Assembly (NCBI GenBank): GCA_964475985.1
Contig: CAYYYP010000009.1
Location: 14,662-78,661, forward strand
DNA length: 64,000 bases
Reading direction: 5' to 3'
From: an uncultured Oligoflexia bacterium
GTDB lineage: Bacteria; Bdellovibrionota; UBA1018; CAYHWW01
Below are positions 16,819-34,978 of this stretch, in pieces; within the stretch, counting starts at the first letter, position 1, and each line of letters begins with the position of its first letter. Under the pieces are notes generated by a model. It did no database searches and was not told the DNA's origin. It worked only from the letters and a program-made list of their open reading frames with translations. Both the position numbers and the translations under genes were made by a program.

Positions 16819-17370
16819 TTAAGCCGCGTCGCGACCCTTTAAAGGAATTCGGAATTCGGCGCCAGAATCTGTCGAAATCGCCAAGGTATCTTTTTCCAGG
16901 GTTAAAATTACGCGCGTTCCGTTTTGCTCAAACTCAAGGGAGATCGCAGCGCAGCCCCCCACTTTAAGGGCAAGGCCTCCGCCGCCGAAACTTTGCTCAT
17001 AACCGTGAGTGTCACCGGCAGGTGTAGTTGTTGTTTCAAAAGCCAAGGGGTCAGGATGGACAACGTGGGCATCAGTTTCTACTAAACTTTCAGTGGCAAT
17101 TTTTGTATTTTTAATGGGAATCACCTTTGCATTTGGGGAAGCGGCCCCTTCGGTTTCGTGGTCAAAAATTTCGGCATTCGTTGCCGTGTCGACTGGTTCG
17201 GAAGGATTTTGAGGCGCCAGGGCATGTGCCGAGGTGTCGGGAGTTGTCTCGGCCGTCGTCGCAGTGGCCGTTTTGCTTTCAATGCCTTCAATCTCAGCCA
17301 GGATTTTTTCAATCTCATCTGATTGGTTGGAAAAACCGGATCCGGTATTTGAATTGGCGGCGTCTGTCAT
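16819..17370 (-). CDS. Hypothetical acidic protein
   Basis: 183 aa with a Glu/Asp/Thr/Ala-rich N-terminus and a Gly-rich C-terminal beta-like segment. No recognisable family. Confidence 0.4.
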   Translation of the reverse strand: MTDAANSNTGSGFSNQSDEIEKILAEIEGIESKTATATTAETTPDTSAHALAPQNPSEPVDTATNAEIFDHETEGAASPNAKVIPIKNTKIATESLVETDAHVVHPDPLAFETTTTPAGDTHGYEQSFGGGGLALKVGGCAAISLEFEQNGTRVILTLEKDTLAISTDSGAEFRIPLKGRDAA

Positions 17371-17567
17371 AGTTTTCTCCTTCTCGGCAACGTTTTTTTA
17401 AAGTTGCTGCGCATTAAATTTATAAAATTTCAAATTTCAAGGCGCCTTACATGAAGAACTTCGGACAGATGACTTTAAATATTAAGTTTCTAAGAAATTT
17501 TTTCAAACAAAGGTAGGCGAATACTTCCGAGTTGGTTAAACCTTTTCTTTGCTGTGGTTGCCTCAAA

Positions 17568-20500
17568 ATGACGTCCAACTTTGACTCTTTCCCAAAAAAT
17601 TTGAATCAAGCCCCCCGCGAAAATGACGGTATTTTTGCGATGATGGGCCTTATCGACAAGGACGTTTTATCTAAAAGCCTGAATGTTCCTACGGGCAAAG
17701 CCTTGAATCCCAAGCCCGTACAAAAATCTAGGCCACCCGCCGCCGCACCAAAGCTTACCCTTTCTGGCGAAGAATGGATTCAGCCTAAAAATGAAGTGTC
17801 GTTCCATCCCATTCTAAAGAGTTTTGATGAGTTATTTGAGCTCTTTAGACGGGATATCTTTCAACACCGAGATCAACTGCTCCACCTGAACAGCTCGCGG
17901 CGTCAAATGATTGAGCGCAGGCTTGAGGTCATCGCCAGGCGCATCGCAAGGGCGCGCGGCGAAAAACCCATTAAGGTTCTCTCGCTTCCCGATGTCCTAA
18001 GGGACTCTTTTCACGATATGCGGGAGAAATCCCAAGCCTTAGCGGCCCTGGATGGTTTTATCGCTGAAGTTGCGCTCCATAACATTTTTCAAATTGCGTT
18101 TCTGCTCTCGGCCGATGTTGCTCGATTACGCACGTTTGAAAAAAATGATCTCACGCGTCTTAATTTTGTCTGTCATTCCTTCGTCAATCAAAAGACCATC
18201 GCCTTCAACCAAGACAAATGCTCCTGGAACTTTGTGCGGCCAAGCATTTATTCCTGGTACAGCCTCTCCCCCATCGCCCTTGAGCAGCTCAACGCTGAGA
18301 CACTGAATCGTTTGTTGCGCAAGGACAGCCCCAGCCACAAACAAAATCAATTTATAGATTTTTCTTCTCTTGCGCCAGAACAAGAGTCTTTCGCCTTTGA
18401 GCCCCTTACGCAGAACATAAGCCAGCTTTTGGACGGCTGGTTATCTTCGACTCACCATAAAGCGGCGTTTGATCATCTCGATTTTGCGACAGAACGTTCA
18501 GGCATTCGCTCTCTGCTTAATTTTTTGGAGGCAGAACTTGGTGTTTCCCTGGCGGATCGCATTCAGCGGCGGCTGTTTTTAAAACGGGCGTTTTTGCCCT
18601 GCTTGGAGTCAGGCGCCTGGGCTTTGGAACTTCTTGAAAGCATGTTCAAAGTGCTTGAGCAGCAGTGGACCAGGGAAGGCGCGCTCCAAGGAAATCTCGG
18701 AACAGTTTCCCAAAATGTCGTAGAGGCCATTGAATATTCTTTGCAAAATTCACTCTGGGGTTGTGAGGGCGAAAGCTTTGAAACCTTTCAGCTGGAGGCA
18801 AGGGTACTTATCCGCGTAGTTGAATTCCTCAGCAAATTTGAAAACCACGGAGCTGGATTATTTAGCCAGGATGGTGGAGCACAATCGCTTTATCATTACC
18901 ATGGATCAAAGGCGCGCCCCTTACGCATTCCCCATGGGATTCGGATCGCGCCTCACCTTGGCATTGAACTTCATAATTTGGTTCAAGAGCCTTTAAGTCC
19001 TTCCTTCACTAATTTGATGGAAATCGGCATGTCACACGGAAGGTCGGCTCTGAAGTTTTCAAACGATGGCGTAGGCCTTCCGAATGCAACTACGTCCCAG
19101 GGCGTGGCTTCAGCATCTCCTGCTTCGCTGGATCTCGCTTCCTCTGCCCATTGCCAACTCTCACACCAAGCGAACACGGCGGCCGTCATTCAAAACTCTG
19201 AGAACTTCGATCTTGCGATTGTTTTAGATCATATCGACCGGGTGCGCTCGACACGGTGGCTTAAAGCTTTAGGTGAACAGGCTCCGTATTGGCGTGCATT
19301 CTTGGGCAGCAGTTCTAATTTGAATTGGGGCGAGTTGCACTTAGCCCTTGCACTTTCAAAGCTTAAGGAAAATGGAACTTGTGTGTTTTTATCCCACCGC
19401 ACCCTTCCCGATGGTGGGGATGGCGATCGTTTGCGCCGATGGATTTTAAGCCAAGCCACCTTGGAAGTGCAAGTGCTTGACCTGCCTGAGGAATCCTTTG
19501 GAAGTTATCGGCACCTCTACGTGTTTAAACGTTGCTCCCAAAAGACGGAGCGCGATCACCATCGCGTGCACTTTGGATCTTGGCGTGAACCACTTTCCCT
19601 TTCATTACTGGAAGAATCTTCCAGTACGCAGTGGGAAATTTCCGAGCGCGGGTGGGATCAAGTTTTTGTAAGGGGTGCAGCTCCTCTTGTGAGGCACCTT
19701 ACCCATAAGTTTCCCAAACTTTTTCAAGTGGCGTCCGTGCAAACTTGGTCGCCCGATCAACGTGGCGAGATGCAAGCGCTGTTTGATCAGAAGGATGTCG
19801 CGGCCCTTGAGGTCAAACGACAAGGTTATCGTTTGGAGTTTCAGCCCCTGCAGGCTCACTCGCCCTCCCGCGAGCGAGTCGTCATCTTCCCGCACAATGC
19901 GAATGATTTGTCTTGGCTGTGCAGCGTTTTAAATTCTTCGCCCGTTCAATTTTGGATCAAAATGCAGTTGACCCAGGAAGGTGGGCCCTTGCGAGCCCAA
20001 GACATGCGTTCCATACCCGTAGTGGATATGGCCTCCGTTTCATCCGAAGTGGTAACGCAGTATTTGCAATGGCTTTCTGGAGAACAATCTTCATCCCGAA
20101 TGAATGAAACGGCACTTTTGGAATGGTGCCGCACGGCAAGCCAAGAAGAAAAGGCGCCCATGATGGTGGCTCTGTCGCGCAGGCGCTTTACGCAGAAACG
20201 TACGCTCAACCGCTACCTTGACCTTTTTGAAACCTTTGAAGAGGACAAGTTGGATTTTGATCCGGAACGCCTCAGCGTATTTTACCCAGAACATCTGCTT
20301 TCCCAGATTGGCGAAGTATCTCACATTCGAGTGCAATACATTCACCCCACCGCCGTGAATCCAAATTCAAATTTAGGTTCGGGATCGGTGGCCAATTGGG
20401 TTTTGCGCGAAGTGAATGTTTCCCAAGCATCTGCGGCATCTTCACCGGCATTCTCATTGATTCAGGTTCAAGTAAAACAAGGCGGTCAGATCCGTTTCTT

Positions 20501-20765
20501 AATTCCAAGGATTTTGGCCGATCTTTTCGTGTCCCAACTCAAACGTTTGCGGGACTTCACTTGGGAAGAGGCGTTACAAATTTTGCGGGTGCCCTCTGAC
20601 CTTGAGCTTTTTGAGGCTCAGACTTCAGAAATCAGAAGAGTTTGCCAACAAACCTTATTGGAAGTGAGAGCAACGGACCGGGTTATGGAGGTCCTCTCCC
20701 TTGATCTATTTGAGATCCTGCCCCAGGATCGTCAGTACCTGAGGAGTGAGCTCAATTGGGTGTAG
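17568..20765 (+). CDS. Large hypothetical protein with a degenerate gamma-class N6-adenine methyltransferase-like core and a TaqI-like C-terminal target-recognition domain
   Basis: The ORF track starts at a TTG at 17532; I took the first ATG (MTSNF...) at 17568. FDLAIVLDHI sits where FDvIvgNPPY would be, so the catalytic motif is lost. A motif V-like segment (ELHLALALSKLKENGTCVFLSH) follows, then motif VI-VIII-like DRLRRWILSQATLEVQVLDLPEESF...LYVFKRC. The C-terminus has an LSWLCSVLNSSPVQFWIK...GG...IPV pattern typical of TaqI-like TRDs. The N-terminal ~550 aa is unassigned. Confidence 0.55.
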   Translation: MTSNFDSFPKNLNQAPRENDGIFAMMGLIDKDVLSKSLNVPTGKALNPKPVQKSRPPAAAPKLTLSGEEWIQPKNEVSFHPILKSFDELFELFRRDIFQHRDQLLHLNSSRRQMIERRLEVIARRIARARGEKPIKVLSLPDVLRDSFHDMREKSQALAALDGFIAEVALHNIFQIAFLLSADVARLRTFEKNDLTRLNFVCHSFVNQKTIAFNQDKCSWNFVRPSIYSWYSLSPIALEQLNAETLNRLLRKDSPSHKQNQFIDFSSLAPEQESFAFEPLTQNISQLLDGWLSSTHHKAAFDHLDFATERSGIRSLLNFLEAELGVSLADRIQRRLFLKRAFLPCLESGAWALELLESMFKVLEQQWTREGALQGNLGTVSQNVVEAIEYSLQNSLWGCEGESFETFQLEARVLIRVVEFLSKFENHGAGLFSQDGGAQSLYHYHGSKARPLRIPHGIRIAPHLGIELHNLVQEPLSPSFTNLMEIGMSHGRSALKFSNDGVGLPNATTSQGVASASPASLDLASSAHCQLSHQANTAAVIQNSENFDLAIVLDHIDRVRSTRWLKALGEQAPYWRAFLGSSSNLNWGELHLALALSKLKENGTCVFLSHRTLPDGGDGDRLRRWILSQATLEVQVLDLPEESFGSYRHLYVFKRCSQKTERDHHRVHFGSWREPLSLSLLEESSSTQWEISERGWDQVFVRGAAPLVRHLTHKFPKLFQVASVQTWSPDQRGEMQALFDQKDVAALEVKRQGYRLEFQPLQAHSPSRERVVIFPHNANDLSWLCSVLNSSPVQFWIKMQLTQEGGPLRAQDMRSIPVVDMASVSSEVVTQYLQWLSGEQSSSRMNETALLEWCRTASQEEKAPMMVALSRRRFTQKRTLNRYLDLFETFEEDKLDFDPERLSVFYPEHLLSQIGEVSHIRVQYIHPTAVNPNSNLGSGSVANWVLREVNVSQASAASSPAFSLIQVQVKQGGQIRFLIPRILADLFVSQLKRLRDFTWEEALQILRVPSDLELFEAQTSEIRRVCQQTLLEVRATDRVMEVLSLDLFEILPQDRQYLRSELNWV

Positions 20766-21493
20766 AGCTGAGACACGTCAATGGTTGTCTTTTTTTGCGC
20801 AGGCAACTTCGCCTCCTAAAAGACCTGATGGCGGACAAGTCAGCATTTGCAAAGTCCACATTAGAGCTTCTAAACTCGCTTGATTCAAAATTGCCCAATG
20901 ACGAAAATGGAATTCCTCCCCTGGAAGTTTTTGAGTCCTATCTCATCGATGACCTGGATGCGAGTACGGTGCTTCATCACCATTCCGAGGAATTGTTAAG
21001 ACTTGAAAAAATGATTCTGGAACAAAGTTTGTCGGAAACTTCCCGTGAGCAATTCCAGAAGAATCTACGCCACCCGCTGGAACTTAAGGAACGTTCCAAA
21101 TTTTTTGGGCGTAAGGCGGCGTTTGAAATCCTAGAACGTGGAGAACTGGTGCGCCCGCGTCCCTCGGAGGAACTTACCCTTAAGCAAACTCAATGGATTC
21201 TCTATCACCGGTTTCAGTTCGTGCCTTCGTATCAGGAACAGGGTTTTCTCACGGTAAGGGATCTGGAATCGCATTTGCTCATGGAAAATCGTGGCTGCCC
21301 TCACATACGTTGGCAGAGGTCAGCTGAGTTATTGGATTTACTTTGTGATCTAGAAGCGGATTTTTTTCTAGGATTTCTAGAGGTCACGGCCCCCCGCAGC
21401 CATTTTCAAAAGAGGCCGTCGGCATTGGCCCATTGTTGCGTGTGGGAGCTTCACTCTACGGCTGGCTTATCTACTCTTTCAAGCCAGCGATAA
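20756..21493 (+). CDS. Hypothetical protein, translationally coupled to the upstream large gene
   Basis: The ORF overlaps the stop of the upstream gene by 10 bp, and its 3' end overlaps the convergent regulator gene by 43 bp. No recognisable domain. The true start may be the internal Met (MADKSAF). Confidence 0.4.
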   Translation: MGVELRHVNGCLFLRRQLRLLKDLMADKSAFAKSTLELLNSLDSKLPNDENGIPPLEVFESYLIDDLDASTVLHHHSEELLRLEKMILEQSLSETSREQFQKNLRHPLELKERSKFFGRKAAFEILERGELVRPRPSEELTLKQTQWILYHRFQFVPSYQEQGFLTVRDLESHLLMENRGCPHIRWQRSAELLDLLCDLEADFFLGFLEVTAPRSHFQKRPSALAHCCVWELHSTAGLSTLSSQR

Positions 21494-22923
21494 ACTGTAC
21501 GCAAATTGATCCCTAAAATCTGCGCAGCCTGTGCTTTGTCACCTCGACATAGGTCCAGTGTTTGGCGAATCACATGATCTTCAATCTGGCGAAGGGGTGT
21601 ACCGAAGGGAAGTACGATGTGAGCTTCGGGTTCGGCCTTCGCAGATAAAGACTGTTCAAGAATTTGTTTTGGTAGATCACGAACCGTAATCAGTCCGCCT
21701 TGGCAAAGAGCCGCTCCGCGTTCCACGACGTTGCGCAGTTCTCGCACGTTTCCCGGCCAGTCATAACTTTTGCAGAGCGTCCTAGCTTCCTTCGTCATGC
21801 TGACTTCCTGTCGAAGGTTTTCTTGTTCAGGTGTCGTGAAAAACCGGCAAAAGTAATCTAGCAAAGCTTCGATGTCGCCAGGGCGCTGGCGCAATGGATA
21901 CACATCAACGCTCACTACGCGTAATCGGTAGAGTAAATCTTCCCGGAACTTTCCCTGGTCGCAAAGAGATTCAAGCTCCTGGTTCGCCGCCGTAACCCAG
22001 CGCACATCGATTCGTCTACTCTCGTTACTGCCTAGGGGGCGCACCTCTTTTTCCTGGATGACCCTCAGTAATTTTGACTGCATGCTCAAACTCATAGACG
22101 TGATCTCATCAAGAAAAAATGTACCACCGTCGGCCAAGGTAATCTGACCGGGTTTTTCTTGGTGAGCTCCCGTAAAAGCTCCACGTTCATAACCAAAAAG
22201 TTCACTCTCTAATAAAGTTTCCGGCAACGCTGCCGCATTGAGCGCTACGAAAGGTCCATTTTTCCGGAGGCTTTTCTCATGAAGTCGCTTGGCCAGGAGT
22301 TCCTTTCCCGTGCCACTCTCCCCGGTGATGAGCACCGACGCTAAGGTCGGCGCCACTTGATCAATCAGCTGAAGAACCGCTTGGGATTTTAAATCCTTTG
22401 CGATGAACTCCGTGGGCGGCGCAGGAGTCATGGGAAGCGAGGCCGCCTTTTTGGCTTGTTTTAGGCGGTAGGCGCGCAATCTTAAAGTTTCCTGGCAGAG
22501 GAGTTCCAGTTCCTTTTTTTTAAGCGGCTTCATCAAAAAGTGGATGGCACCCTGGCGCATGAGCTCGATGGCCTGGGCGAGATCGCCATAGGCCGTCATA
22601 AAAGCCACGTGCGGGCGGGACGTTTTATCACGTTGTCCCTGACCGCTATGAATCACCAGGTTTTCTAGGCAAGCATGCTTAAAGAACAAGTCCCCATCCA
22701 TGACGGGCATTCTCAAATCGCAAAGGATCAAATCAAATTGTCCCTGATTCCTCAGGATCTGCAATCCTTCTTCGCCGTGGGCAGCGCTCGTGCAATCATG
22801 ACCCAATCGTAAAAACATCTCCTGCAAAGAAACGCGGCCTGAGACATCGTCATCAATGGTGAGGATGCGAAGTTTCCGAAGCTCCTCAGGATGCCCGGAT
22901 GGTTGACGCGTAGGGGGTTTCAT
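21451..22923 (-). CDS. Sigma-54-dependent transcriptional response regulator (NtrC family)
   Basis: Receiver domain (LTIDDD...ILCDLRMPVMDG), an AAA+ sigma-54 activator core (GESGTGKELLAKRLH, a GAFTGA-like ERGAFTGA) and a C-terminal Fis-type HTH. Confidence 0.9.
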   Translation of the reverse strand: MKPPTRQPSGHPEELRKLRILTIDDDVSGRVSLQEMFLRLGHDCTSAAHGEEGLQILRNQGQFDLILCDLRMPVMDGDLFFKHACLENLVIHSGQGQRDKTSRPHVAFMTAYGDLAQAIELMRQGAIHFLMKPLKKKELELLCQETLRLRAYRLKQAKKAASLPMTPAPPTEFIAKDLKSQAVLQLIDQVAPTLASVLITGESGTGKELLAKRLHEKSLRKNGPFVALNAAALPETLLESELFGYERGAFTGAHQEKPGQITLADGGTFFLDEITSMSLSMQSKLLRVIQEKEVRPLGSNESRRIDVRWVTAANQELESLCDQGKFREDLLYRLRVVSVDVYPLRQRPGDIEALLDYFCRFFTTPEQENLRQEVSMTKEARTLCKSYDWPGNVRELRNVVERGAALCQGGLITVRDLPKQILEQSLSAKAEPEAHIVLPFGTPLRQIEDHVIRQTLDLCRGDKAQAAQILGINLRTVYRWLERVDKPAVE

Positions 22924-25167: not shown

Positions 25168-28100
25168 CTACCGCAAACCCTGAAGGCTTTTTGTAATGCA
25201 GTTTAAACCTTCGGCCGAGGTTGGGGTTTCGATTAGTGGAGTGAGGAGATTTGTTAGTGTGGTTTGGAGTTCGGTGCCTTGGGGGCCGCGGTAGTGGGCG
25301 AAGGATCTTTCGGTGAAACCGCGGGCGGCTTGCGTTTTAGAGATGACGTGGGCGGCCGTGGTGGAGAAGGCTTGCCTGAGTTGGCTGGGAGATGGACTTA
25401 CTTCTAGATTTAGTTCGGAGTGAATGGAGTTCAAATGAGTTACGGCCTCACCTACGGAAATTTGGTTTTGGTTTAATCTTTGATAGGTACGAATAAGGCG
25501 GTCGGCGAGCATGAGGGCTTCGCGAGGGTCGAGGCTTTGGTGTCCGCCTACACTTTGGATGATGCGCCGGAGTTGGGAGTGTTCGCGGGCGATGGCTTCG
25601 TTTCTTTCGTTTAAGACACTAGATTCAAGTCCTAAGGGGTTACCTAAAAATGGGATAGTCGTGGGCTCGTGGGCTAAATTTTCAGTGATGGATTGGGACG
25701 GCTCAGTTGGGCTAGAAGCGGCAACCGGCGCCTCAGTGAGTCCAAGTGCAAGATAGTCTCGCAGCGGAGGTAAGGCGTACGTTAAAGGTGCACTATCAAC
25801 AGATTTTGTTGTATTTGTAGCTGTAGCTGTCGCAAAATTTGGGGACGCGTTTTGGATGCGCCTGCGGGCGATAAATTCTCTTGCTCTCATCGCCGCGTTC
25901 CTTGCCCTGCGCCACCATTCTTGAATATGACTTTGGGTGGTTTGGAATCCTCGTCTTAATCCTGCACCACGGGATTGCGCGACTGCCGGCACCGGCGAGC
26001 GAGGGTCGCGTCGGTTTGGGGTTGAATCATAAATCGTACGGCGAATTTCGCCAGCGGGTGACCTGCGCAGTTCGTGAGTTCTTGCGTGAAAGTCGTCAGC
26101 CCTTAATGTCCGAGCACCCGGCTCCACCCAGAATTCCGAGCGGGACTCAACTCTCACCGATGGATTTCCACCATGATAGCTTTCTAGAACCGCACTAAAA
26201 ATTTCACTGGCGCCAGAACACTGCGTGCAGACCACGGCATCCTCCGCCAGAAACCTTGCTAGCGGCGTGAACTCATTTTCAAGTTTCGTACTGGGATGCG
26301 CAGGAAATGTTTGTTCCGATCGGTAAGTATAAAGGCCTGACTCTCGAACCGTGGCTTCCAGTTCTGATCCAACCACTAAAATACTATTGCGTTCGGAGTG
26401 CGACCGCATCAAAGCATCAAGCCTATCCGCTAATACTACAAAACCCGCATCCCTAAGTCGCATAATCACCGGTCTTAGGCGTTCTATTTCATAAGTCTGC
26501 GAAAGCGGATTTGCCGCATCGGGCGTGGCGGATATTCGGTAAGCGGCATTGATATGAAAGAAGGGAACCTGCCCCCCGACCTCTCTTCGCAAACGAACAA
26601 TGTTTTCCCGCGTTGGCCCGTGCATGAGAACATCATAATCTTTACCTTGCTTAAGCCTGCGGCCTTGGAGATCGGTCACTTCAATATGGGAGAGCACGTG
26701 ATTTTCTGGCCGCGGAAGTGGTGCATCCGGGGCATGTGGCCCGCCGAGCATGGGAACTCGAGTGCGAACCTCCACCAACGCCGGATAATTTCTATTTCTT
26801 CCACGTAAAAGCCAAGCCACGGGATTCCTTGCGGGAGGTGGTGGTACGTTCACAACATGGGATTCTGAAGCATTTCTAAAATCTTCAACTTGTCCCAGGA
26901 GAAAGTGAGCGGGCATTTGTTCTCGAGGAATTCGCCCGCGGTAAGCCACATGATAATGAATGTCGTCCTTTGGGATATGGTTGGTCGCGGTGCTCCTAGC
27001 CCCCAATGGCAACGCTACCGGCTGCGGGGTAGCGGTCGCCGATGTTGGAGGAGCTTCTAAATTATTATTATTTTGGGCCGTCGGCATTAGAAACCCGCCG
27101 TGGTTAGCTCGGTCTATCCGTTCCACTAAGTTTTCGGCGGGTAAATTATTACGCCTAAGCGATCGTTCTCTTTCCAATACAGAGTCCATTCCTTCGCTCC
27201 AAAGGTGAGCCTCCAATGCTACGGCAGCTTTGTTGATGTCATTTGGCAACCACCGCAACGGTTGGGTTTGTTCATGCTGCCGCACGAAATGTCCGAGCTG
27301 AAATTCCATATCGGAATCTGCGGTAAACTGCGCATCAAGCACCCTCACCCCTTCCGCATAATTCTGAATCAAATGCGGTACGGATCTTCGAAATAAAGTC
27401 TCCCGAACGAGGTCCTGCTCCGTAAGTATCTCGCCCCGGGGCCCCCTGGCGTCTGGCTCCGTCATGAAATATGTGGAAACCGCGTCCGGGTTCATTTCTG
27501 GGGGTAAATGCGGTAAATACTGGAGCGTGCTCACGGGCACCCTTTGACCGCTCAGCAATAGAACAGGTTCATTTGTAAGCGAATCCCATTCAAAATTAAT
27601 TCTATTTAGGTCAGCGACATCCAAGATATGCACGTCTTTTCCAATCCTGCGTCCCTGCACATCAAAACCTTCCGGTAGAACTCCTCGATAATTCGGATCC
27701 GGAATATACGCGAGCGATCCATGCCCTTCCGAGATCATCGTCGCAAATGCGCCTCGAAATCGGTTCCGTAAAACATCCAACTGCCTTCGCCGCCACAGGG
27801 CTAATTCCTGAGCCGGCGGCAGCCGCAAAGCATTGGCTTTTCTTACTCTTGCATCGTGGGTAAGATGGGTGACCAGCCGATGATAATCCTGATTATAGGG
27901 TGGTTGATTTAGGAAACGTTCCGGGCTCAGCGTGACCGAATTTTTTTGAATGAAATCTGGCGTTCGAGATGGAATGCCCGGAAGGGAAAGTGGCGCCACT
28001 TGGGGCAAGTTTTCAGGTAATGGGCTCGCCGATACTCCATAGGGAGCAATGCTTCTAGTTGATAAAACGACTTCGGTTAACGGATGAGACTGGCTGATGG

Positions 28101-30429
28101 TTTCTAAAATTTGCGCTCGCGCCTGAACGTCGATGACCGTCTGTTCCCTTGGGGATAAAGGCGGAAGCATTGCTTCGTTGGACGTTACTTTTTCGCCCGT
28201 TTCGGAAACATTTTGTGCCGGGTTTCGTTGTCGCGCCTGCAACCGCAAGTAATCATGCTGAAGCCGAGTCATGGGGTCTAGTAAAAAGCTCTCCCCTCGC
28301 GACTGCACTGCCTCGTCCAGAAGTCGGTTTCGCCGCAAATGCCCGATCCGCATATTCCGAATGCGATCCGCCCCAAACAAGGTGGTGCCCCAATTGATTG
28401 CATTATAAATTTCTGACGCAGTACGGTCCGTAATTTTTGAATGATCAAATAATGTCGTGAGGCTCGGAAGCCCTGGCTGCTTCACCGTACTTAGCACCAC
28501 TTGGGCAAGGTCACCTAAGGACCCATCTTGTCCCCTTAGGCGGAGCAAAGGTTCTTCCTGCTCCCTCACAATATTCCCAACGCCAAGTGACTGAGCCACA
28601 TCTAGATCCGGCGTAATAAAGAGCGCCATCCCCGAATGGACACTGCGCACCGGCGTAGGGCCCGCCAAAAGAAGTTCAACATCGTTTGTGCGTTCCAGTA
28701 GAGACGAAGGAACCGTCATATGCGACTGCGAACCTATGTAACGATCATAAAGTACTCCGCTGGGTATACCTCGCCTTCGCACCCAGTCCCTCGTGCGGTT
28801 ATGCCAGTCCGCAGTATTATCGCCCCACCATTTACCATGGCCAGCATCCACGCCGGCCCGCACTTCGGGGATGGTGTGGTAGAAATCAGTTAAGGTGTCG
28901 AGCGCATAGGTATAATTTAATGAACTTGGGGTTTCTGTTCTTAAAATTTCCACAAGCTCGTCGCGAATATTTCTATCGTAGTGGACCAAACGGCGAAAGG
29001 CCGGAAAGAAATTTAAAAACTTTCGGTTTCTTACATCTTCGAGAATAAACGCCCTAGTCTCCGGCGTGTAGGCCGAGGCAGGGATTGCGCGATTAAGGGA
29101 AGAAATCAATCGGTCGTAGGGAAACTGATTCCTAAGATATGGAGCATTATAAATATTAATTATTGCAGCCTGGACCTCCGGTCTCGAATAACCCACATCA
29201 ACCATGTCTGGCAGGCGCGCTACGGCGTGCATAATCAACGCTACGTTAAGGTGAGTCCCATCGCCGCCACTGTTCCTCGAGATATTTCGCGCAAAGTGCC
29301 CCAAAACATACGCCGAAAGCTCAGGCGAAAAAGTTTCTTTAGAACCCTGGTATCTATCAGCCGTTAGTTTTAAAATTTTCGCCACCAAGTTATAGCGACC
29401 TTGAGCTTCAAGTTCCGGTAAAATATATCGGGCTAACGCGGCCTCGGGCGGCCGTAACTTAGTACGTTTATTGTTCAGTTCTGCGGTGAGAATATCCACA
29501 AATGCATCAGGGTCCCTCCGCAATTCTGCTAAGTAAAAATCTCGAATCCGCGGGCTCGCATACATGAGGTGCGGAAAAAGATGGAAGATATCTTTTGGTT
29601 GTGAAAGAAGCGCACTTTCAATTTCTGGATGGAGCTGGCGAGTATTTCCTAATTTCTGAATAAGCTGCCGCATATCATCCCCGTAAAAGTACCCCCTAGC
29701 GTGCCGCCGCAAAAAAGCCTCGCGCACCCAACGGACTCCATTCACGTGCTCAAGCAAAGAAGATTCAAACACTAGCGCGTCAAGATCTGCAGATTCCATG
29801 ACCAGACTTCCAGAGTCCGTACTCCAAGGGTGCGCCGCAAGTAAGGGCCCCCATTGCTCCAAGTCAGCCCGTGGAGTGTGGTAGTACACCGCCAGCCCTT
29901 TGATAAACGTATCCTCCGCAACGAATCGCTCCCCCTCGGGAACTTCGTAGAGTCTCGCTAAAATAAGGGATTTAAACCGTTGATTACCGTTCGCAATATG
30001 AAAGAGTCGCGCCCATACGTCCATGCTCGAATAATTCGTACGACGTAAAAAGCTCAATAAAATTTTAATCCCATCAAGCCCCGACCATGAGTATCCCGTC
30101 GCATGCAAAATCCGATACGCCTTTTCACCACGGAGCGCCTCCGCTTCAGCCCCACTTTGAAGGCCTCGGGCAAGCCGCACAAGTTCATCCAACGCCACTT
30201 GCCGATCACCGGCATTTTGGTTGAAAATCGCCTTAATTAAAAATACAAATCCGTCGGCCTGCGCCGACTGGAAGTCAAACGTATCCACGATGGCCCCTAC
30301 CCGTTCCCGAATCAAATGCGGTGGTGAACCAAAAACCAAATGCGGAGAAAATCCCTCCGCCGCCAACACTGCGACGAGGGTAAAACACCACAACCTAAAT
30401 TTTGACCAGGTTTTTGGGACGGACGTCAT
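25168..30429 (-). CDS. Giant hypothetical secreted protein (1753 aa) with no recognisable domain
   Basis: Uninterrupted 5.26-kb ORF starting ATGACGTCC with an N-terminal signal-like segment (FRLWCFTLVAVLAAEG). Arg-rich, with composition similar to the 1616-aa protein. It is followed by palindromic element B. Confidence 0.7.
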   Translation of the reverse strand: MTSVPKTWSKFRLWCFTLVAVLAAEGFSPHLVFGSPPHLIRERVGAIVDTFDFQSAQADGFVFLIKAIFNQNAGDRQVALDELVRLARGLQSGAEAEALRGEKAYRILHATGYSWSGLDGIKILLSFLRRTNYSSMDVWARLFHIANGNQRFKSLILARLYEVPEGERFVAEDTFIKGLAVYYHTPRADLEQWGPLLAAHPWSTDSGSLVMESADLDALVFESSLLEHVNGVRWVREAFLRRHARGYFYGDDMRQLIQKLGNTRQLHPEIESALLSQPKDIFHLFPHLMYASPRIRDFYLAELRRDPDAFVDILTAELNNKRTKLRPPEAALARYILPELEAQGRYNLVAKILKLTADRYQGSKETFSPELSAYVLGHFARNISRNSGGDGTHLNVALIMHAVARLPDMVDVGYSRPEVQAAIINIYNAPYLRNQFPYDRLISSLNRAIPASAYTPETRAFILEDVRNRKFLNFFPAFRRLVHYDRNIRDELVEILRTETPSSLNYTYALDTLTDFYHTIPEVRAGVDAGHGKWWGDNTADWHNRTRDWVRRRGIPSGVLYDRYIGSQSHMTVPSSLLERTNDVELLLAGPTPVRSVHSGMALFITPDLDVAQSLGVGNIVREQEEPLLRLRGQDGSLGDLAQVVLSTVKQPGLPSLTTLFDHSKITDRTASEIYNAINWGTTLFGADRIRNMRIGHLRRNRLLDEAVQSRGESFLLDPMTRLQHDYLRLQARQRNPAQNVSETGEKVTSNEAMLPPLSPREQTVIDVQARAQILETISQSHPLTEVVLSTRSIAPYGVSASPLPENLPQVAPLSLPGIPSRTPDFIQKNSVTLSPERFLNQPPYNQDYHRLVTHLTHDARVRKANALRLPPAQELALWRRRQLDVLRNRFRGAFATMISEGHGSLAYIPDPNYRGVLPEGFDVQGRRIGKDVHILDVADLNRINFEWDSLTNEPVLLLSGQRVPVSTLQYLPHLPPEMNPDAVSTYFMTEPDARGPRGEILTEQDLVRETLFRRSVPHLIQNYAEGVRVLDAQFTADSDMEFQLGHFVRQHEQTQPLRWLPNDINKAAVALEAHLWSEGMDSVLERERSLRRNNLPAENLVERIDRANHGGFLMPTAQNNNNLEAPPTSATATPQPVALPLGARSTATNHIPKDDIHYHVAYRGRIPREQMPAHFLLGQVEDFRNASESHVVNVPPPPARNPVAWLLRGRNRNYPALVEVRTRVPMLGGPHAPDAPLPRPENHVLSHIEVTDLQGRRLKQGKDYDVLMHGPTRENIVRLRREVGGQVPFFHINAAYRISATPDAANPLSQTYEIERLRPVIMRLRDAGFVVLADRLDALMRSHSERNSILVVGSELEATVRESGLYTYRSEQTFPAHPSTKLENEFTPLARFLAEDAVVCTQCSGASEIFSAVLESYHGGNPSVRVESRSEFWVEPGARTLRADDFHARTHELRRSPAGEIRRTIYDSTPNRRDPRSPVPAVAQSRGAGLRRGFQTTQSHIQEWWRRARNAAMRAREFIARRRIQNASPNFATATATNTTKSVDSAPLTYALPPLRDYLALGLTEAPVAASSPTEPSQSITENLAHEPTTIPFLGNPLGLESSVLNERNEAIAREHSQLRRIIQSVGGHQSLDPREALMLADRLIRTYQRLNQNQISVGEAVTHLNSIHSELNLEVSPSPSQLRQAFSTTAAHVISKTQAARGFTERSFAHYRGPQGTELQTTLTNLLTPLIETPTSAEGLNCITKSLQGLR

Positions 30430-32302: not shown

Positions 32303-34978
32303 GTGGCCGAACCTATTTCTAACAACCTCAAAGATATGATCGAAGATTCACCCGAATTTGACCCGCGGGCACAAATTATTTTCATCCATCCTTTGACCCC
32401 GTCCTTACAAAAACTCCTGGAATCCCTGAAGAAAGATCCTAATTCGAATCTCATCGAAGCGGGCAGCGCCATGGAAGCGATGCAAATCGCTCAGATGTAT
32501 AAACCGTGTATCCTAACGGGCAGCATGACCCAGGATTCTGACATTGTAAAAATGTTCACTTTATTTGCGGGCCTCAAATCCGACATCAAAAACAATCACA
32601 TCAAAACAATGTTGTTATCCGCGGTAAAGGATACTCGCATCGTTAGAAAATTTTCCGACTTAGGCTGCACAGATTACATTTTTGAACCGGTTCCCATTCG
32701 GCAGCTCCTCCATAAATTCAGCCTGCAAATCCGCGCAAACCGGGCGGCCCGCAAACAGCGCAATAACAAAGACATTGATTTAAAACGATTGGACCAAAAG
32801 CAATTCCAACGCAACAATCTTAACCAGGAAAATGCGGCGAATTTACGAGAACTTGCCGCCAATGAAGTAGAACAGGATTGCTGGATTACCCGGGGAAAAC
32901 CGAGGCTAATCGACGGAACCTGGAACGTGTCCATGATTGGTCCGCCCACCCATGAAGGAAGGTGGGAAAGGCATAACGATCAGATCTGGAAGTACGTGCC
33001 AAGTGATCCTAAAAGTCTTGGGCCCGAAAAGGGAAATTGGTATTTCTCAGGCCAAAAGCCAAGTTACTCAAGGCTTGAATGGCTTTTCAAGAGTGACGCA
33101 CCAAAACTCTACTTCCAGGACGCAAAAGGAAAAATTCTATTTTATAAGCTTAATCTTGCCGCTGACGAAAAACTGGAAATGGCTAAGGACTCAGCCATTG
33201 CCCAGCAACGATTGGCCGAAGAAAAAAGGCAAATTGAAGAGCTGGCAAATTCGGCTGAACCAGAATCGTCGCCAAATAAAAATAAAAAAGAAACATTGAG
33301 TCCTGACGAACACGTTTCAAATTCTAGCGATTCGGAAAAGGAAACGCCAGAGGATGAAACGGGGGAATCGAGCGATTCCGAATCCAATAATTTACAATAT
33401 AAAAGTCTAAAGACAGAAAGCCAGGATAAGGCTAGTGCCCGTAAAAAAAGGAATCTAATTGAGGTCCCCCCGGGGGCCGAAGTAGATTCACCGGAAGCAA
33501 ACGAAGATAACCCCGAAGAAAAAGCGCTAAAAAGAAAACGAGCAAGTACGATTGTGGTGCCACCCGGCAAAGATCAGCCAAAGGCACCGGCCACCACAAG
33601 CCAAAGTCCAACTAATGACCCCTTAACTTCAAAAACTCAATCTCCCAAATCTGCCGAAGAAGAACCAACGCAAAGGCCCATGGTACCTCCCGGCCAAATT
33701 GCCAAAAATTCCTCTTCCAAGAAAACAGCCGCCCATAATGAAAAAGAAAACTCAGGCCCATCCAATGTTCCTAAATCTAATGATCCCACCGCAAATTCTA
33801 GTTCCGGGCCTAACCAAACTCCTGCCAAATTTTCAAAAAAGGACCGCGCTGTTAGAGCGGATGGTGATTCACTTCAGGATCAGGAACCTGACCCTGAAAA
33901 GCAAAGGAGAGGCTTAGACCAAAGAAACTTTTTGCAAAAAAAGGATTCAGAGAAAGGTCCAAACCCGGGAAACACTCGGCCTAAGGTCAACGATCAGCCC
34001 ACCTTAAACAGAAAAAACTCCGAAGAAAATGGCGATGAGAACCAGCCTCTGAAGTCAAAAAATTTCCTAAAGAAAAAAAGTATCGAGGAAAAAAACCAAA
34101 GCCACTCTGAAGATGCCACCAACGCGAGTTCTAGGGAAAATAAGGGCCAAGGCCCAAGCACCGACCCTAACGCATCGAAGGTAAGGCAGCCAAGCGCAAA
34201 CCATCTCGAAAGAAAAGCGAATGGTTCCGGACCTGATGTCGCCGGTGCATCCCGGAAGCAAAACGAAACGATCAAAAAAAATCTGGCGGACAATAACGGT
34301 AATCCAGAAAACACGCCCAACCCAAATAAAGCCGCTGCAAAGCAAGCCCCAAAAAGGAAAACTAGAGAGGCCTCGGAGGGCTCTCCAACTATTGGAGAAA
34401 CTGAAGGATCAGCCGGTGACAACTTTCAAGCAGACGATGAGGATTCGCCGCTAACCCCCGAAGAAACCTCACCGGTCTCGACCGATTTATTATCAAAAGA
34501 CGAGCAGACTCTACTGACCAAAGAAGATTTCTCCGTTGAATTTGATCCCAGTGCAGCGGAACCGTTAAATGCATCCGAAACCTTACCCCCCTTAGTTTTG
34601 CTTATGAAAATCACCGATTTATTAACTCAGCGAAATCTCCCGCTGGAGCAGCTCACCGAAAAAATCTTCAAAATCCTTTTTCAGGAACTGAAAAAAATTT
34701 ATCGCAGCCCTAAACTTTTTTTATTGCAAGCAGACTCTACTCTACAATTGGCATTTCCACCCTCCCCTGCTTTAACCCCCGGACGCCCCGTGGCATTGAG
34801 TGCAATCCATAAAATTTTCCCCCTCTCGGTATCCGATAAGTCTTCGGGCTTCCTGTGCCTAGAACTGAATGGCCCCCAAATGGATCCAGCGGAACTTGCA
34901 AAATACCGCGTGGTAGCACTGGGCCTGTTATCATTAATGCAATGCCTCACGGTCAAAAACCCGGCAAAAGCTGCCTAA
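32303..34978 (+). CDS. Hypothetical protein: receiver-like N-terminal domain, ~550-aa K/E/S/P/N-rich disordered region, and a structured C-terminal domain
   Basis: GTG start in the ORF track. The N-terminal ~130 aa has receiver-fold-like alternation but no clear phospho-acceptor Asp. A long low-complexity middle follows, then a C-terminal ~180-aa hydrophobic/structured region. It lies immediately upstream of the HD-GYP gene. Confidence 0.5.
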   Translation: MAEPISNNLKDMIEDSPEFDPRAQIIFIHPLTPSLQKLLESLKKDPNSNLIEAGSAMEAMQIAQMYKPCILTGSMTQDSDIVKMFTLFAGLKSDIKNNHIKTMLLSAVKDTRIVRKFSDLGCTDYIFEPVPIRQLLHKFSLQIRANRAARKQRNNKDIDLKRLDQKQFQRNNLNQENAANLRELAANEVEQDCWITRGKPRLIDGTWNVSMIGPPTHEGRWERHNDQIWKYVPSDPKSLGPEKGNWYFSGQKPSYSRLEWLFKSDAPKLYFQDAKGKILFYKLNLAADEKLEMAKDSAIAQQRLAEEKRQIEELANSAEPESSPNKNKKETLSPDEHVSNSSDSEKETPEDETGESSDSESNNLQYKSLKTESQDKASARKKRNLIEVPPGAEVDSPEANEDNPEEKALKRKRASTIVVPPGKDQPKAPATTSQSPTNDPLTSKTQSPKSAEEEPTQRPMVPPGQIAKNSSSKKTAAHNEKENSGPSNVPKSNDPTANSSSGPNQTPAKFSKKDRAVRADGDSLQDQEPDPEKQRRGLDQRNFLQKKDSEKGPNPGNTRPKVNDQPTLNRKNSEENGDENQPLKSKNFLKKKSIEEKNQSHSEDATNASSRENKGQGPSTDPNASKVRQPSANHLERKANGSGPDVAGASRKQNETIKKNLADNNGNPENTPNPNKAAAKQAPKRKTREASEGSPTIGETEGSAGDNFQADDEDSPLTPEETSPVSTDLLSKDEQTLLTKEDFSVEFDPSAAEPLNASETLPPLVLLMKITDLLTQRNLPLEQLTEKIFKILFQELKKIYRSPKLFLLQADSTLQLAFPPSPALTPGRPVALSAIHKIFPLSVSDKSSGFLCLELNGPQMDPAELAKYRVVALGLLSLMQCLTVKNPAKAA

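What the first reader, a model, noticed from the sequence alone, without database searches (positions are those of the whole stretch)
17568..21493. Large protein with a catalytically degenerate N6-adenine methyltransferase-like core plus a TaqI-like recognition domain, coupled to a small ORF
The region around residues 560-700 follows gamma-class amino-methyltransferase motif order. The NPPY catalytic tetrad is replaced (FDLAIVLDHI where FDvIvgNPPY would be). The downstream motifs are preserved (ELHLALALSKLKENGTCVFLSH; RLRRWILSQATLEVQVLDLPEESF...VFKRC), and a C-terminal LSWLCSVLNSSPVQFWIK...GGPL...IPVVD segment resembles TaqI-like TRDs. An inactive MTase-like, DNA-recognition scaffold fused to a ~550-aa unknown N-terminus and overlapping a 245-aa ORF by 10 bp could be a novel defence or epigenetic-sensing module, comparable to inactive-MTase components of restriction-related systems. 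The motif assignments come from memory, not from an alignment.
Basis: inference. Interest (0 to 1): 0.65.

Follow-up and report, generated by a model that had tools for sequence, protein, structure and literature searches.

The report
Dead DNA-methyltransferase-like core gene, predatory bacteria
This 1065-residue protein has the shape of an adenine DNA methyltransferase with its DNA-reading domain but has lost the residues needed to methylate; it is not a mobile defence gene but sits in the same housekeeping neighbourhood in the 15 related Bdellovibrio-group loci that have upstream sequence, usually with a small cysteine/histidine partner gene, and its function is unknown.

Summary
Window 17568-20765 (+) encodes a 1065-aa protein, and a 245-aa ORF (20756-21493) overlaps it by 10 nt behind a GAGGAG ribosome-binding site.

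- **Profile searches:** the target itself matches no Pfam or NCBIfam model.
- **Homologues:** an exhaustive search found 46 relatives. The two subfamilies align at hhalign E 1e-51. Three members of the distant subfamily pass Pfam's Eco57I threshold.
- **Structure:** an alignment-based AlphaFold model (pLDDT 82) matches only gamma-class adenine DNA methyltransferases that carry a TaqI-like recognition domain: BREX PglX, CamA, BpuSI, M.TaqI.
- **Lost motifs:** NPPY is replaced by LDHI. No family member has (N/D/S/T)PP(Y/F/W). The motif I acid and motif X are also lost.
- **Not defence:** the gene faces rsmD-coaD-aminotransferase divergently in all 15 related loci with upstream flank. No defence partner lies nearby. 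The recognition domain is no more variable than the rest of the protein.
- **Partner gene:** the small ORF is conserved downstream in 10 of 13 distinct loci. It has a CPH...C...C motif and weak V4R/ATC-hydrolase similarity.

My best reading is a vertically inherited pseudo-methyltransferase that acts as a non-catalytic nucleic-acid-recognition scaffold. Its identity is well supported. Its function is inferred.

The parts
17371..17567 (.). Divergent intergenic region between the conserved orf183-rsmD-coaD operon (minus strand) and the large gene (plus strand). Presumed promoter region.
   Evidence: The consensus scan found no sigma-70-like site on the + strand here.
17568..20765 (+). Large gene ('BIG'), 1065 aa: a catalytically degenerate PglX/Eco57I-like MTase-TRD protein.
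17568..17804 (+). Residues 1-79: poorly conserved N-terminal tail, predicted disordered.
   Evidence: pLDDT below 50 for residues 1-29 and 37-76. Pairwise identity 0.19.
17805..18332 (+). Residues 80-255: all-helical N-terminal bundle. It carries the family's most conserved motifs (LNxxRR at 107-112, EVA at 167-169, NxYSW at 226-230). It has no beta-sheet, so no PD-(D/E)xK nuclease fold.
   Evidence: Secondary structure and pLDDT above 90. Column counts. No PDB sequence relative.
18543..19667 (+). Residues 326-700: Rossmann-like class-I methyltransferase fold, with seven strands in canonical order.
18591..18614 (+). Motif I equivalent, FLPCLESG (residues 342-349). The Pro and the last Gly are kept. 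The acidic residue and the GxG are lost.
18765..18767 (+). E400, the motif II acidic residue (equivalent to M.TaqI E71). It is E or D in 26 of 27 family members.
19002..19166 (+). Residues 479-533: a 55-residue Ser/Ala/Gly-rich disordered insertion. Relatives have only 3-21 residues here.
19206..19235 (+). Motif IV equivalent, FDLAIVLDHI (residues 547-556). Strand beta4 is kept and the NPPY tetrad is replaced by L553-D-H-I556.
19323..19415 (+). Motifs after motif IV, NWGELHLALALSKLKENGTCVFLSHRTLPDG (residues 586-616). This is the part that still gives weak hits to MTase profiles.
19668..20072 (+). Residues 701-835: TaqI-like target-recognition domain, including the LNSSPVQFW...IPVVD core (nt 19899-20030).
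   Evidence: Sub-threshold TaqI_C hits in 5 different relatives, at the aligned position. M.BseCI alignment. Fold matches to TaqI, CamA and PglX.
20073..20765 (+). Residues 836-1065: C-terminal helical plus beta-strand domain with conserved W999, E1001 and P1009. Stop codon at 20763-20765.
20741..20746 (+). GAGGAG Shine-Dalgarno site inside the end of the large gene, 9 nt upstream of the small ORF's TTG start.
20756..21493 (+). Small ORF, 245 aa, overlapping the large gene by 10 nt. It has a conserved CPHxR...C...GF...C motif and weak V4R/ATC-hydrolase-like similarity. Its 3' end overlaps the convergent NtrC-type gene by 43 nt.

Best explanation
The large gene encodes a pseudo-enzyme descended from the PglX / type IIG (Eco57I, MmeI) branch of gamma-class N6-adenine DNA methyltransferases.

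It keeps the whole architecture: a helical N-terminal bundle, a Rossmann methyltransferase fold, a TaqI-like target-recognition domain and a C-terminal domain. It has lost what is needed for methyl transfer:
- the Asn and the aromatic residue of NPPY, which hold the flipped adenine;
- the acidic residue and GxG of motif I;
- motif X.

It is not part of a mobile defence island. It is a gene found once in the window and once in each related locus, with a fixed position in Bdellovibrionota (Bacteriovoracia/Oligoflexia), facing the rsmD-coaD operon. In most lineages it is translationally coupled to a small Cys/His protein.

Inferred mechanism: the MTase-TRD clamp still closes on nucleic acid, most likely duplex DNA at a conserved target, and acts as a non-catalytic recognition or scaffold module. 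The N-terminal bundle is the most conserved part of this family. Together with the small partner protein it would provide the output, through protein contacts or ligand control.

Shown: the fold, the homology, the loss of motifs, the synteny and the gene pairing. Inferred: nucleic-acid binding, the partner interaction and any physiological role.
For: Homology:
- phmmer against 1.84 billion representatives gives 46 relatives, 18 of them at E<=1e-30.
- hhalign of the target subfamily against the P0022 subfamily gives probability 100%, E 1.4e-51, over 809 columns.
- P0022, P0024 and P0046 pass the Pfam Eco57I gathering score (42, 53 and 39 bits against 25.3). They also give weak MmeI_Mtase, N6_Mtase and TaqI_C hits.

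Fold:
- The AlphaFold2 model built with 43 sequences has pLDDT 82.3 and pTM 0.69.
- All 50 Foldseek PDB matches listed are adenine DNA methyltransferases or restriction-modification enzymes: PglX/BrxX (E 1.8e-7, 1059-1113 columns), CamA, BpuSI, M.TaqI, a Vibrio vulnificus MTase (7eew), LlaBIII, M.BseCI.
- The 10 best BFVD matches, and most of the next dozen, are named DNA methylases or restriction-modification proteins.

Degeneracy:
- No [NDST]PP[YFWH] occurs at the motif IV position in any of the 47 family sequences. The only regex match is SPPH at residue 11 of the fragment P0009.
- Alignment to the verified M.TaqI sequence maps N105-P-P-Y108 onto L553-D-H-I556 and E45 onto L343.
- The tetrad columns vary across the family, while E400, E410, G349 and K598 are nearly invariant.

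Core-gene behaviour:
- Among the 19 loci fetched, BIG lies directly opposite the rsmD-coaD operon in the 14 of the 15 loci with upstream flank; in the 15th, L011, two uncharacterised genes and two further genes lie between them. Aminotransferase, orf262 and phoH lie further upstream where the flank reaches them.
- The P0022 locus keeps rsmD and secA nearby.
- GC content is unremarkable.
- Neighbours are housekeeping genes and 8 nearby orphan ORFs give no PADLOC hit.
- TRD identity of 0.33 is comparable to the other domains, 0.30-0.46.

Pairing: a homologue of the small ORF lies immediately downstream in 10 of 13 distinct loci with flank. One of these (L019) was not used to build the HMM and scores E 1e-32.
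Against: - No direct evidence of nucleic-acid binding exists. Domain net charges are near neutral and uninformative.
- The target itself matches no curated profile.
- TM-scores to solved structures are low (0.13-0.40), as expected for multidomain proteins, so the domain-by-domain correspondence rests on sequence-level alignments (the family alignment; hhalign) and on secondary-structure order.
- The motif II acid (E400) and a 'GLExH' motif after strand beta3 are conserved. Some ligand binding in the old cofactor pocket therefore cannot be excluded.
- The small partner is missing in three clades, so it is not obligatory.
Confidence: 0.6

Rival explanations
1. The fold is kept only as a scaffold. 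The protein no longer recognises nucleic acid and instead binds a small adenosine-containing or other ligand in the remnant cofactor pocket, or binds other proteins. It would work with the V4R-like partner as a metabolic or signalling sensor.
For: The motif II acid E400 is E or D in 26 of 27 members. E410 is invariant. 'GLExHxxxQL' after beta3 is conserved. The partner has weak similarity to the small-molecule-binding V4R/ATC_hydrolase families, and in several relatives a ChaN-like haem-binding gene follows it. The N-terminal bundle, not the TRD, holds the most conserved residues.
Against: The TRD and the C-terminal domain are retained at full length and are conserved about as well as the other domains (0.33 and 0.30 against 0.33-0.46) in all clades. 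That is hard to explain if nucleic-acid recognition were lost. The V4R and ATC_hydrolase hits are below the curated thresholds.
Confidence: 0.25
2. It is a component of a new or BREX-like anti-phage defence system: an inactive methyltransferase that supplies target recognition to an effector.
For: The closest solved structure is BREX PglX, which is the specificity factor of BREX (PMC11341690). There is a weak PADLOC hit to mad2.
Against: No PglZ, BrxC, BrxL, nuclease or other PADLOC-recognised partner lies in the neighbourhood. The gene has a fixed syntenic position beside rsmD-coaD in every related locus. It has no compositional anomaly. The TRD is not hypervariable. The all-helical N-terminus excludes a type IIG nuclease domain.
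Confidence: 0.07
3. It is still an active methyltransferase for DNA, RNA or protein that uses a non-canonical catalytic loop.
For: The overall fold and the motif II acid are intact. The P0022/P0024 clade keeps a canonical motif I (DPTMGSG) and motif X (YTPP), with CPPE at motif IV.
Against: In the target and most relatives, motif X, the motif I acid and all four motif IV positions are replaced. The replacements differ between clades: LDHI, EE.., CPPE. A functional catalytic loop would be expected to be conserved. No alternative xPP[YFW] motif is conserved elsewhere.
Confidence: 0.05
4. It is a decaying relic (pseudogene) of an old R-M gene and has no function.
For: The catalytic motifs are lost. 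The target has a 55-residue disordered insertion.
Against: The reading frame is intact at 850-1065 aa in dozens of cluster representatives that share only 17-40% identity. Invariant residues are spread over all domains, and the synteny and the coupled partner gene are conserved. This requires long-term purifying selection.
Confidence: 0.03

Closest known systems
BREX PglX / BrxX methyltransferase (PDB 8C45, 8Q56, 9EWZ)
   Same: It is the best structural match, and the alignment spans almost the full length (1059-1113 columns, E 1.8e-7). The architecture is co-linear: N-terminal helical bundle without a nuclease, gamma-class MTase fold, TRD, helical spacer and C-terminal domain. Compare PglX 1-227, 227-661, 662-849, 850-960 and 961-1225 in PMC11341690 with residues 80-255, 326-700, 701-835 and 836-1065 here.
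   Different: PglX has GSG and NPPY, binds SAM, methylates DNA and sits in a six-gene BREX island. The window protein lacks both motifs, has no BREX neighbours and is a syntenic core gene. In PglX the MTase region is more conserved than the N-terminal bundle (PMC11341690). Here the bundle carries many of the most conserved residues.
Eco57I / MmeI / BpuSI type IIG-IIL enzymes (Pfam PF07669, PF20473; PDB 3S1S)
   Same: There is sequence-level homology through intermediates: relatives P0022, P0024 and P0046 pass the Eco57I gathering threshold and give weak MmeI_Mtase hits, and these align with the target subfamily at E 1e-51. BpuSI is a fold match.
   Different: There is no N-terminal PD-(D/E)xK endonuclease; the N-terminus is all-helical. 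There is no NPPY. The target itself scores on none of these profiles.
M.TaqI, M.BseCI and CamA (gamma-class orphan or type II adenine MTases with a TaqI_C recognition domain)
   Same: The order of motifs I-II-IV-V/VI followed by the C-terminal TRD with the LNS...F/W...lPiP signature is shared. M.BseCI is the only PDB sequence hit of the family profile and of P0024. M.TaqI aligns by hhalign at E 1e-3. CamA and TaqI are fold matches.
   Different: These are 420-590-aa active enzymes. They have neither the N-terminal bundle nor the long C-terminal domain.
V4R / ATC_hydrolase small-molecule-binding domains (Pfam PF02830, PF14196), compared with the small ORF
   Same: The C-terminal Cys/His motif region of the small-ORF family gives sub-threshold hits: ATC_hydrolase 22.7 bits (cut-off 28.1) and V4R 13.1 bits.
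   Different: The hits are below the curated cut-offs. The target's own small ORF gives no hit and no structure was predicted for it. This is a lead, not an assignment.

Membership tests
Gamma-class N6-adenine DNA methyltransferase (Pfam Eco57I PF07669 / N6_Mtase PF02384) | Class-I Rossmann methyltransferase fold with the gamma motif order (X, I, II, III, IV, V-VIII, then the TRD) | tested here: met
   The AF2 model has strands in canonical order. All 50 listed PDB matches and the 10 best BFVD matches are adenine DNA MTases or restriction-modification enzymes. The motif order was mapped by alignment.
Gamma-class N6-adenine DNA methyltransferase (Pfam Eco57I PF07669 / N6_Mtase PF02384) | Motif IV catalytic tetrad (N/D/S)PP(Y/F/W) | tested here: not met
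   The tetrad is LDHI at residues 553-556. No such motif occurs anywhere in the target or at this position in any of the 46 relatives.
Gamma-class N6-adenine DNA methyltransferase (Pfam Eco57I PF07669 / N6_Mtase PF02384) | Motif I (D/E)PxxGxG for SAM binding | tested here: not met
   The sequence is LPCLESG. Only the Pro and the last Gly are conserved. The acidic residue is present in 2 of 27 family members.
Gamma-class N6-adenine DNA methyltransferase (Pfam Eco57I PF07669 / N6_Mtase PF02384) | Score above the curated Pfam gathering threshold | tested here: not met
   The target gives 0 hits at E<=10. The threshold is met only by the distant relatives P0022, P0024 and P0046.
Gamma-class N6-adenine DNA methyltransferase (Pfam Eco57I PF07669 / N6_Mtase PF02384) | SAM-dependent methylation of adenine in DNA | not testable with these tools
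   This needs biochemistry or a methylome.
TaqI_C target-recognition domain (PF12950) | Profile match above threshold | tested here: not met
   The target gives no hit. Five different relatives give sub-threshold hits (best E 2e-4; 15-19 bits in the members scanned individually, against a cut-off of 26.5) at the aligned position.
TaqI_C target-recognition domain (PF12950) | Fold and position: immediately C-terminal to the MTase domain, ending in the LNS..(F/W)...lPiP signature | tested here: met
   LNSSPVQFW...IPVVD lies at residues 788-820. It aligns with the M.BseCI TRD. Whole-chain fold matches to TaqI, CamA and PglX include this region.
BREX system, PglX component | Encoded with pglZ, brxC, brxL, brxA and brxB | tested here: not met
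   The neighbours are rsmD, coaD, an aminotransferase, phoH and an NtrC/histidine-kinase pair. Eight nearby orphan ORFs give no PADLOC hit.
BREX system, PglX component | Active GxG and NPPY motifs | tested here: not met
Type IIG/IIL restriction-modification enzymes (MmeI, BpuSI, Eco57I) | N-terminal PD-(D/E)xK endonuclease domain | tested here: not met
   Residues 80-255 are purely helical at pLDDT above 90. There are no MmeI_N or nuclease profile hits.
V4R / ATC_hydrolase clan (small ORF) | Profile match above threshold | tested here: inconclusive
   One orthologue scores 22.7 bits against a cut-off of 28.1 for ATC_hydrolase. Another scores 13.1 bits against 31 for V4R. The target's own small ORF gives no hit. 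The CPH...C...C motif is conserved.

The most novel reading that the evidence does not exclude
A PglX-like methyltransferase was domesticated early in Bdellovibrionota. It has since served as a non-catalytic, sequence-specific DNA reader whose output passes through its highly conserved N-terminal helical bundle and a translationally coupled V4R-like Cys/His ligand-binding partner. This would be a new kind of chromosomal regulator or organiser built from restriction-modification hardware in predatory bacteria.
Probability: 0.25. Interest if true: 0.7.

Novelty: new variant of a known kind. Interest (0 to 1): 0.5.

Why it matters
Catalytically dead DNA methyltransferases that have become core genes are well known in eukaryotes (DNMT3L, for example; this is from my own knowledge). 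To my knowledge, and in the four literature searches run here, they are little documented in bacteria, where Eco57I/PglX-type proteins are treated as mobile defence or orphan enzymes.

This family has no Pfam or NCBIfam model. The sources that name a member call it 'hypothetical protein'. It is found throughout a group of predatory and related bacteria, at a fixed locus.

If it still reads DNA, it would show restriction-modification recognition hardware recruited for a housekeeping role. It would also give a natural example of a methyltransferase-TRD module acting purely as a reader.

There is a practical point as well. Structure-based annotation pipelines would probably label it an adenine methyltransferase, or a BREX or type IIG component. 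On this evidence that label would be wrong.

Tried and rejected
- **Word-indexed homologue search.** With the single protein, with the small ORF and with a 43-sequence profile it returned only the query itself. The exhaustive phmmer search was needed.
- **Single-sequence AlphaFold2.** It was useless, with pLDDT 33.6.
- **Exact look-up of the encoding contig.** It failed.
- **The search for related loci with the broad alignment A1.** It had no searchable conserved stretch.
- **PDB sequence searches.** The single-protein search gave only chance-level hits. A profile of the N-terminal bundle against the PDB gave nothing meaningful.
- **Domain charge analysis.** It was meant as a proxy for DNA binding and was uninformative.
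- **ChaN-like third gene.** It follows the pair in several relatives but is absent from the window, so it is not an obligatory part of the unit.
- **Metagenome scan.** It added only three loci.
- **Literature searches.** Searches for bacterial pseudo-methyltransferases, for Bdellovibrio methylomes and for inactive PglX homologues found nothing that describes this family.
- **Alternative start for the small ORF.** I considered the ATG at 20828, which would remove the overlap. I rejected it because the TTG at 20756 has a GAGGAG site and the stretch encoded upstream of the ATG resembles the orthologues.

Full report
**1. What is in the sequence**

The mechanical ORF runs 17532-20765 on the plus strand. 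From the first ATG (17568) it encodes 1065 aa, and a protein of exactly this sequence is on record from NCBI.

A second ORF, 20756-21493 (245 aa from a TTG), overlaps the end of the first by 10 nt. GAGGAG at 20741-20746 lies 9 nt upstream of that TTG. The next in-frame ATG (20828) has no such site. The residues encoded between the TTG and that ATG resemble the N-termini of the orthologous small proteins. The overlap and the translational coupling are therefore real.

**2. Is it methyltransferase-like?**

Taken alone, the protein matches nothing in Pfam or NCBIfam even at E<=10. It has no meaningful PDB sequence relative. Three independent libraries do give weak hits to DNA methyltransferase models at one place, residues 589-669:
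- PADLOC mad2, E 0.0028
- PADLOC MTase_II, E 0.0041
- PHROG 1600, E 0.011

The word-indexed homologue search found only the protein itself. An exhaustive phmmer scan of 1.84 billion cluster representatives found 46 relatives, 18 of them at E<=1e-30. Most are 850-1000 aa long. They fall into three subfamilies:
- the target's own subfamily, about 28-40% identical to the target over the full length;
- a large subfamily with 'FTPTLRDGS' at the motif I position;
- a small subfamily comprising P0022, P0024, P0033, P0038, P0046 and P0042.

Three members of the small subfamily pass Pfam's gathering score for Eco57I (42.4, 52.8 and 39.0 bits against 25.3). They also give weak MmeI_Mtase, N6_Mtase and TaqI_C hits. 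Profile-profile comparison of the target subfamily with this subfamily gives probability 100% and E 1.4e-51 over 809 columns, so the homology covers the full length and is secure.

The family profile and P0024 each have a single PDB sequence hit, the gamma-class adenine methyltransferase M.BseCI. It aligns co-linearly at motif I, at the region after motif IV, and at the TRD.

**3. Structure**

Single-sequence AlphaFold2 failed with pLDDT 33.6. With the 43-sequence alignment the model reached pLDDT 82.3 and pTM 0.69, with 655 residues above 90. It shows these regions:

| Residues | Feature |
|---|---|
| 1-76 | disordered tail |
| 80-255 | all-helical bundle |
| about 326-700 | seven-stranded Rossmann fold, interrupted by a disordered insertion at 479-533 |
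| about 701-835 | mixed alpha/beta domain |
| 836-1065 | C-terminal helical plus beta-strand domain |

Foldseek against the PDB returned adenine DNA methyltransferases and restriction-modification enzymes in all 50 listed rows, each at probability 1.00:
- BREX PglX/BrxX, E 1.8e-7, with 1059-1113 aligned columns
- CamA
- BpuSI
- M.TaqI
- a Vibrio vulnificus MTase (7eew)
- LlaBIII
- M.BseCI

Against predicted viral structures, the 10 best matches, and most of the next dozen, are named DNA methylases or restriction-modification proteins; the best are 760-1020-aa proteins of giant viruses. TM-scores are low (0.13-0.40), as expected when multidomain proteins differ in domain packing. For that reason I take the residue-level mapping from the sequence-level alignments (the family alignment; hhalign).

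The layout is co-linear with published PglX: helical bundle 1-227, MTase 227-661 with GxG at 315-317 and NPPY at 509-512, TRD 662-849, spacer helices, then a C-terminal region (PMC11341690).

**4. Is it catalytically degenerate?**

I verified that my recalled M.TaqI sequence is identical to PDB 1AQJ, then aligned it to the family profile. That alignment is weak on its own: hhalign E 1e-3, probability 21%, 224 columns. It agrees with the internal family alignment. The mapping is:

| M.TaqI | Target |
|---|---|
| E45-P-A-C-A-H-G51 (motif I) | L343-P-C-L-E-S-G349 |
| E71 (motif II) | E400 |
| FDLILG-N105-P-P-Y108 (motif IV) | FDLAIV-L553-D-H-I556 |

Column counts over 27 full-length members show:
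- The Pro (24/27) and the last Gly (26/27) of motif I are kept. The acidic residue is present in only 2 of 27.
- The motif II acid is kept (E or D in 26/27).
- The four motif IV positions have neither Asn nor an aromatic residue and differ between clades: LDHI or xDHPD, EE.., and CPPE.

A regular-expression scan found no [NDST]PP[YFWH] at this position in any of the 47 family sequences. The only match is SPPH at residue 11 of the fragment P0009. Only P0022 and P0024 retain a canonical motif I (DPTMGSG) and motif X (YTPP), with CPPE at motif IV. They look like an intermediate stage of decay.

I conclude that methyl transfer is lost. E400, the invariant E410 and a 'GLExHxxxQL' motif after strand beta3 are all conserved, so some ligand binding in the old pocket remains possible.

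**5. Context: a core gene, not a defence island**

The window is ordinary chromosome. It carries secA, metG, coaD, rsmD, an aminotransferase, phoH, an NtrC-type regulator with its histidine kinase, and several large orphan ORFs. GC content across the gene (0.46-0.50) matches the surroundings. Eight neighbouring uncharacterised ORFs have no PADLOC match.

Ten related loci came from species-representative genomes. They are MAGs labelled Bdellovibrionota, Bacteriovoracia/Bacteriovoracaceae, Oligoflexia or (older naming) Deltaproteobacteria, plus one 4-kb contig binned as WWE3. In all nine of these loci that have upstream sequence, the gene sits divergently from orf183-rsmD-coaD. Aminotransferase, orf262, the DUF5723-like gene and phoH follow where the flank reaches them.

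The same arrangement holds for the distant subfamilies: P0026, P0023 and P0033. P0022 is looser, with rsmD about 6.5 kb upstream, beyond four other genes, and secA nearby.

Within the target subfamily the TRD is no more divergent (mean pairwise identity 0.33) than the other domains (0.30-0.46). This is unlike restriction-modification enzymes, whose TRDs diversify with specificity; that contrast is my own knowledge and was not tested here.

Fixed position, one copy in the window and in each locus examined and full-length conservation down to 17-20% identity all point to vertical inheritance under purifying selection.

**6. The small ORF**

tblastn found no match to it in the related loci. A 224-261-aa ORF does lie directly downstream on the same strand in most of them.

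An HMM built from those ORFs hits the window's small ORF at 38.9 bits, E 3.5e-14 against a single target. A rebuilt HMM finds a homologue in an independent locus, L019, at E 1e-32, and a weak, probably frameshifted one in L005.

Counting distinct loci that have downstream flank, the window included, 10 of 13 carry it. It is absent in these clades:
- L007/L010
- P0022
- P0033

The family shares a CPHxR...C...GF...C pattern. Its Pfam hits are sub-threshold: ATC_hydrolase at 22.7 bits against a cut-off of 28.1, and V4R at 13.1 bits. This hints at a Cys/His ligand- or metal-binding domain and is not an assignment.

In several relatives a ChaN-like (Cofac_haem_bdg) gene follows. The window has none.

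**7. How it most likely works**

*Shown:* the protein is a full-length descendant of the PglX/type IIG branch of gamma-class adenine methyltransferases. It lacks the catalytic and most cofactor-binding residues. It has no nuclease domain, since the N-terminus is all-helical. It is a syntenic core gene coupled to a small Cys/His protein.

*Inferred:* the MTase-TRD clamp and the C-terminal domain are conserved as a unit, so the simplest function is non-catalytic recognition of nucleic acid, probably duplex DNA at a conserved target.

In PglX the MTase region is more conserved than the N-terminal bundle (PMC11341690). Here the bundle carries many of the best-conserved residues: L107, N108, R111, K180, W220, Y228, S229 and W230. 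This suggests that selection now acts mainly on a protein-interaction or output surface there.

My confidence in the identity and the degeneracy is about 0.9. My confidence in the nucleic-acid-reader mechanism is about 0.4. The combined figure I report is 0.6.

**8. Rivals**

- A ligand- or protein-binding scaffold that no longer reads nucleic acid (0.25).
- A defence component (0.07).
- A still-active enzyme with a non-canonical loop (0.05).
- A decaying relic (0.03).

The evidence for and against each is given in the Rival explanations section.

**9. Comparison with known families and novelty**

By fold and descent the protein belongs with Eco57I/MmeI/PglX-type enzymes. It fails the defining tests of each of these groups:
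- an active methyltransferase (motifs I and IV, and the profile thresholds);
- a BREX PglX (gene context);
- a type IIG enzyme (nuclease domain).

I file it as a new variant of a known kind: an unannotated family of pseudo-methyltransferases fixed as a lineage-specific core gene. Four literature searches found no description of it.

I score interest at 0.5. The identity is solid and the domestication is moderately surprising, but the function is unknown and no mechanism has been demonstrated.

Noticed in passing
window 4531-9381 (-), 25168-30429 (-), 32303-34978 (+), 40274-43129 (+): Four very large ORFs (1616, 1753, 891 and 951 aa) lie among housekeeping genes. None has a PADLOC match, and the three scanned against Pfam (not the 951-aa ORF) have no Pfam match either. 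Large orphan proteins appear common in this genome.
   Followed up: partly
window 16819-17370 (-): A 183-aa ORF with no Pfam or PADLOC match lies at the head of the rsmD-coaD operon, directly opposite the large gene. It is conserved at this position in the nine genome-derived loci with upstream flank (34-52% identity). In more distant loci an unannotated ORF of about 248 aa occupies the same position. It could be functionally linked through the shared divergent promoter region.
   Followed up: partly
window 19002-19166 (+), residues 479-533 of the large protein: A 55-residue Ser/Ala/Gly-rich insertion, predicted disordered, lies between strands beta3 and beta4 of the MTase fold. It is unique to this genome's copy; relatives have 3-21 residues here.
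   Followed up: partly
L003 5630-7339, L004 11385-13085, L008 11366-12991, L013 12477-14228: In several relatives a 541-587-aa ChaN-like gene (Pfam Cofac_haem_bdg, Tiki superfamily) follows the small ORF on the same strand, making a three-gene array. The gene is absent from the whole window.
   Followed up: yes
window 21451-21493: The 3' end of the small ORF overlaps the 3' end of the convergent NtrC-type sigma-54 activator gene (21451-22923, minus strand) by 43 nt. The NtrC/histidine-kinase pair lies downstream of the large gene, at variable distance, in five of the other distinct loci (L001, L003, L006, L008, L013).
   Followed up: no
P0022 and P0024 (locus L011 7639-10605): A sister clade keeps a canonical motif I (DPTMGSG) and motif X (YTPP) but has CPPE in place of NPPY. 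It may be an intermediate stage of loss, or an enzyme with an unusual catalytic loop. In L011 an uncharacterised 1064-aa gene follows it.
   Followed up: partly
L007 (contig JBBRLF010000415.1): One orthologue lies on a 4-kb contig binned as 'candidate division WWE3'. This label disagrees with every other locus, all of which are Bdellovibrionota-type, so it is probably a binning error.
   Followed up: no
whole window: The scan of species-representative genomes did not return the window's own contig, although the target contains the search patterns. The source genome therefore seems not to be a GTDB species representative, and its organism name could not be obtained. The relatives place it in Bacteriovoracia/Oligoflexia.
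   Followed up: no
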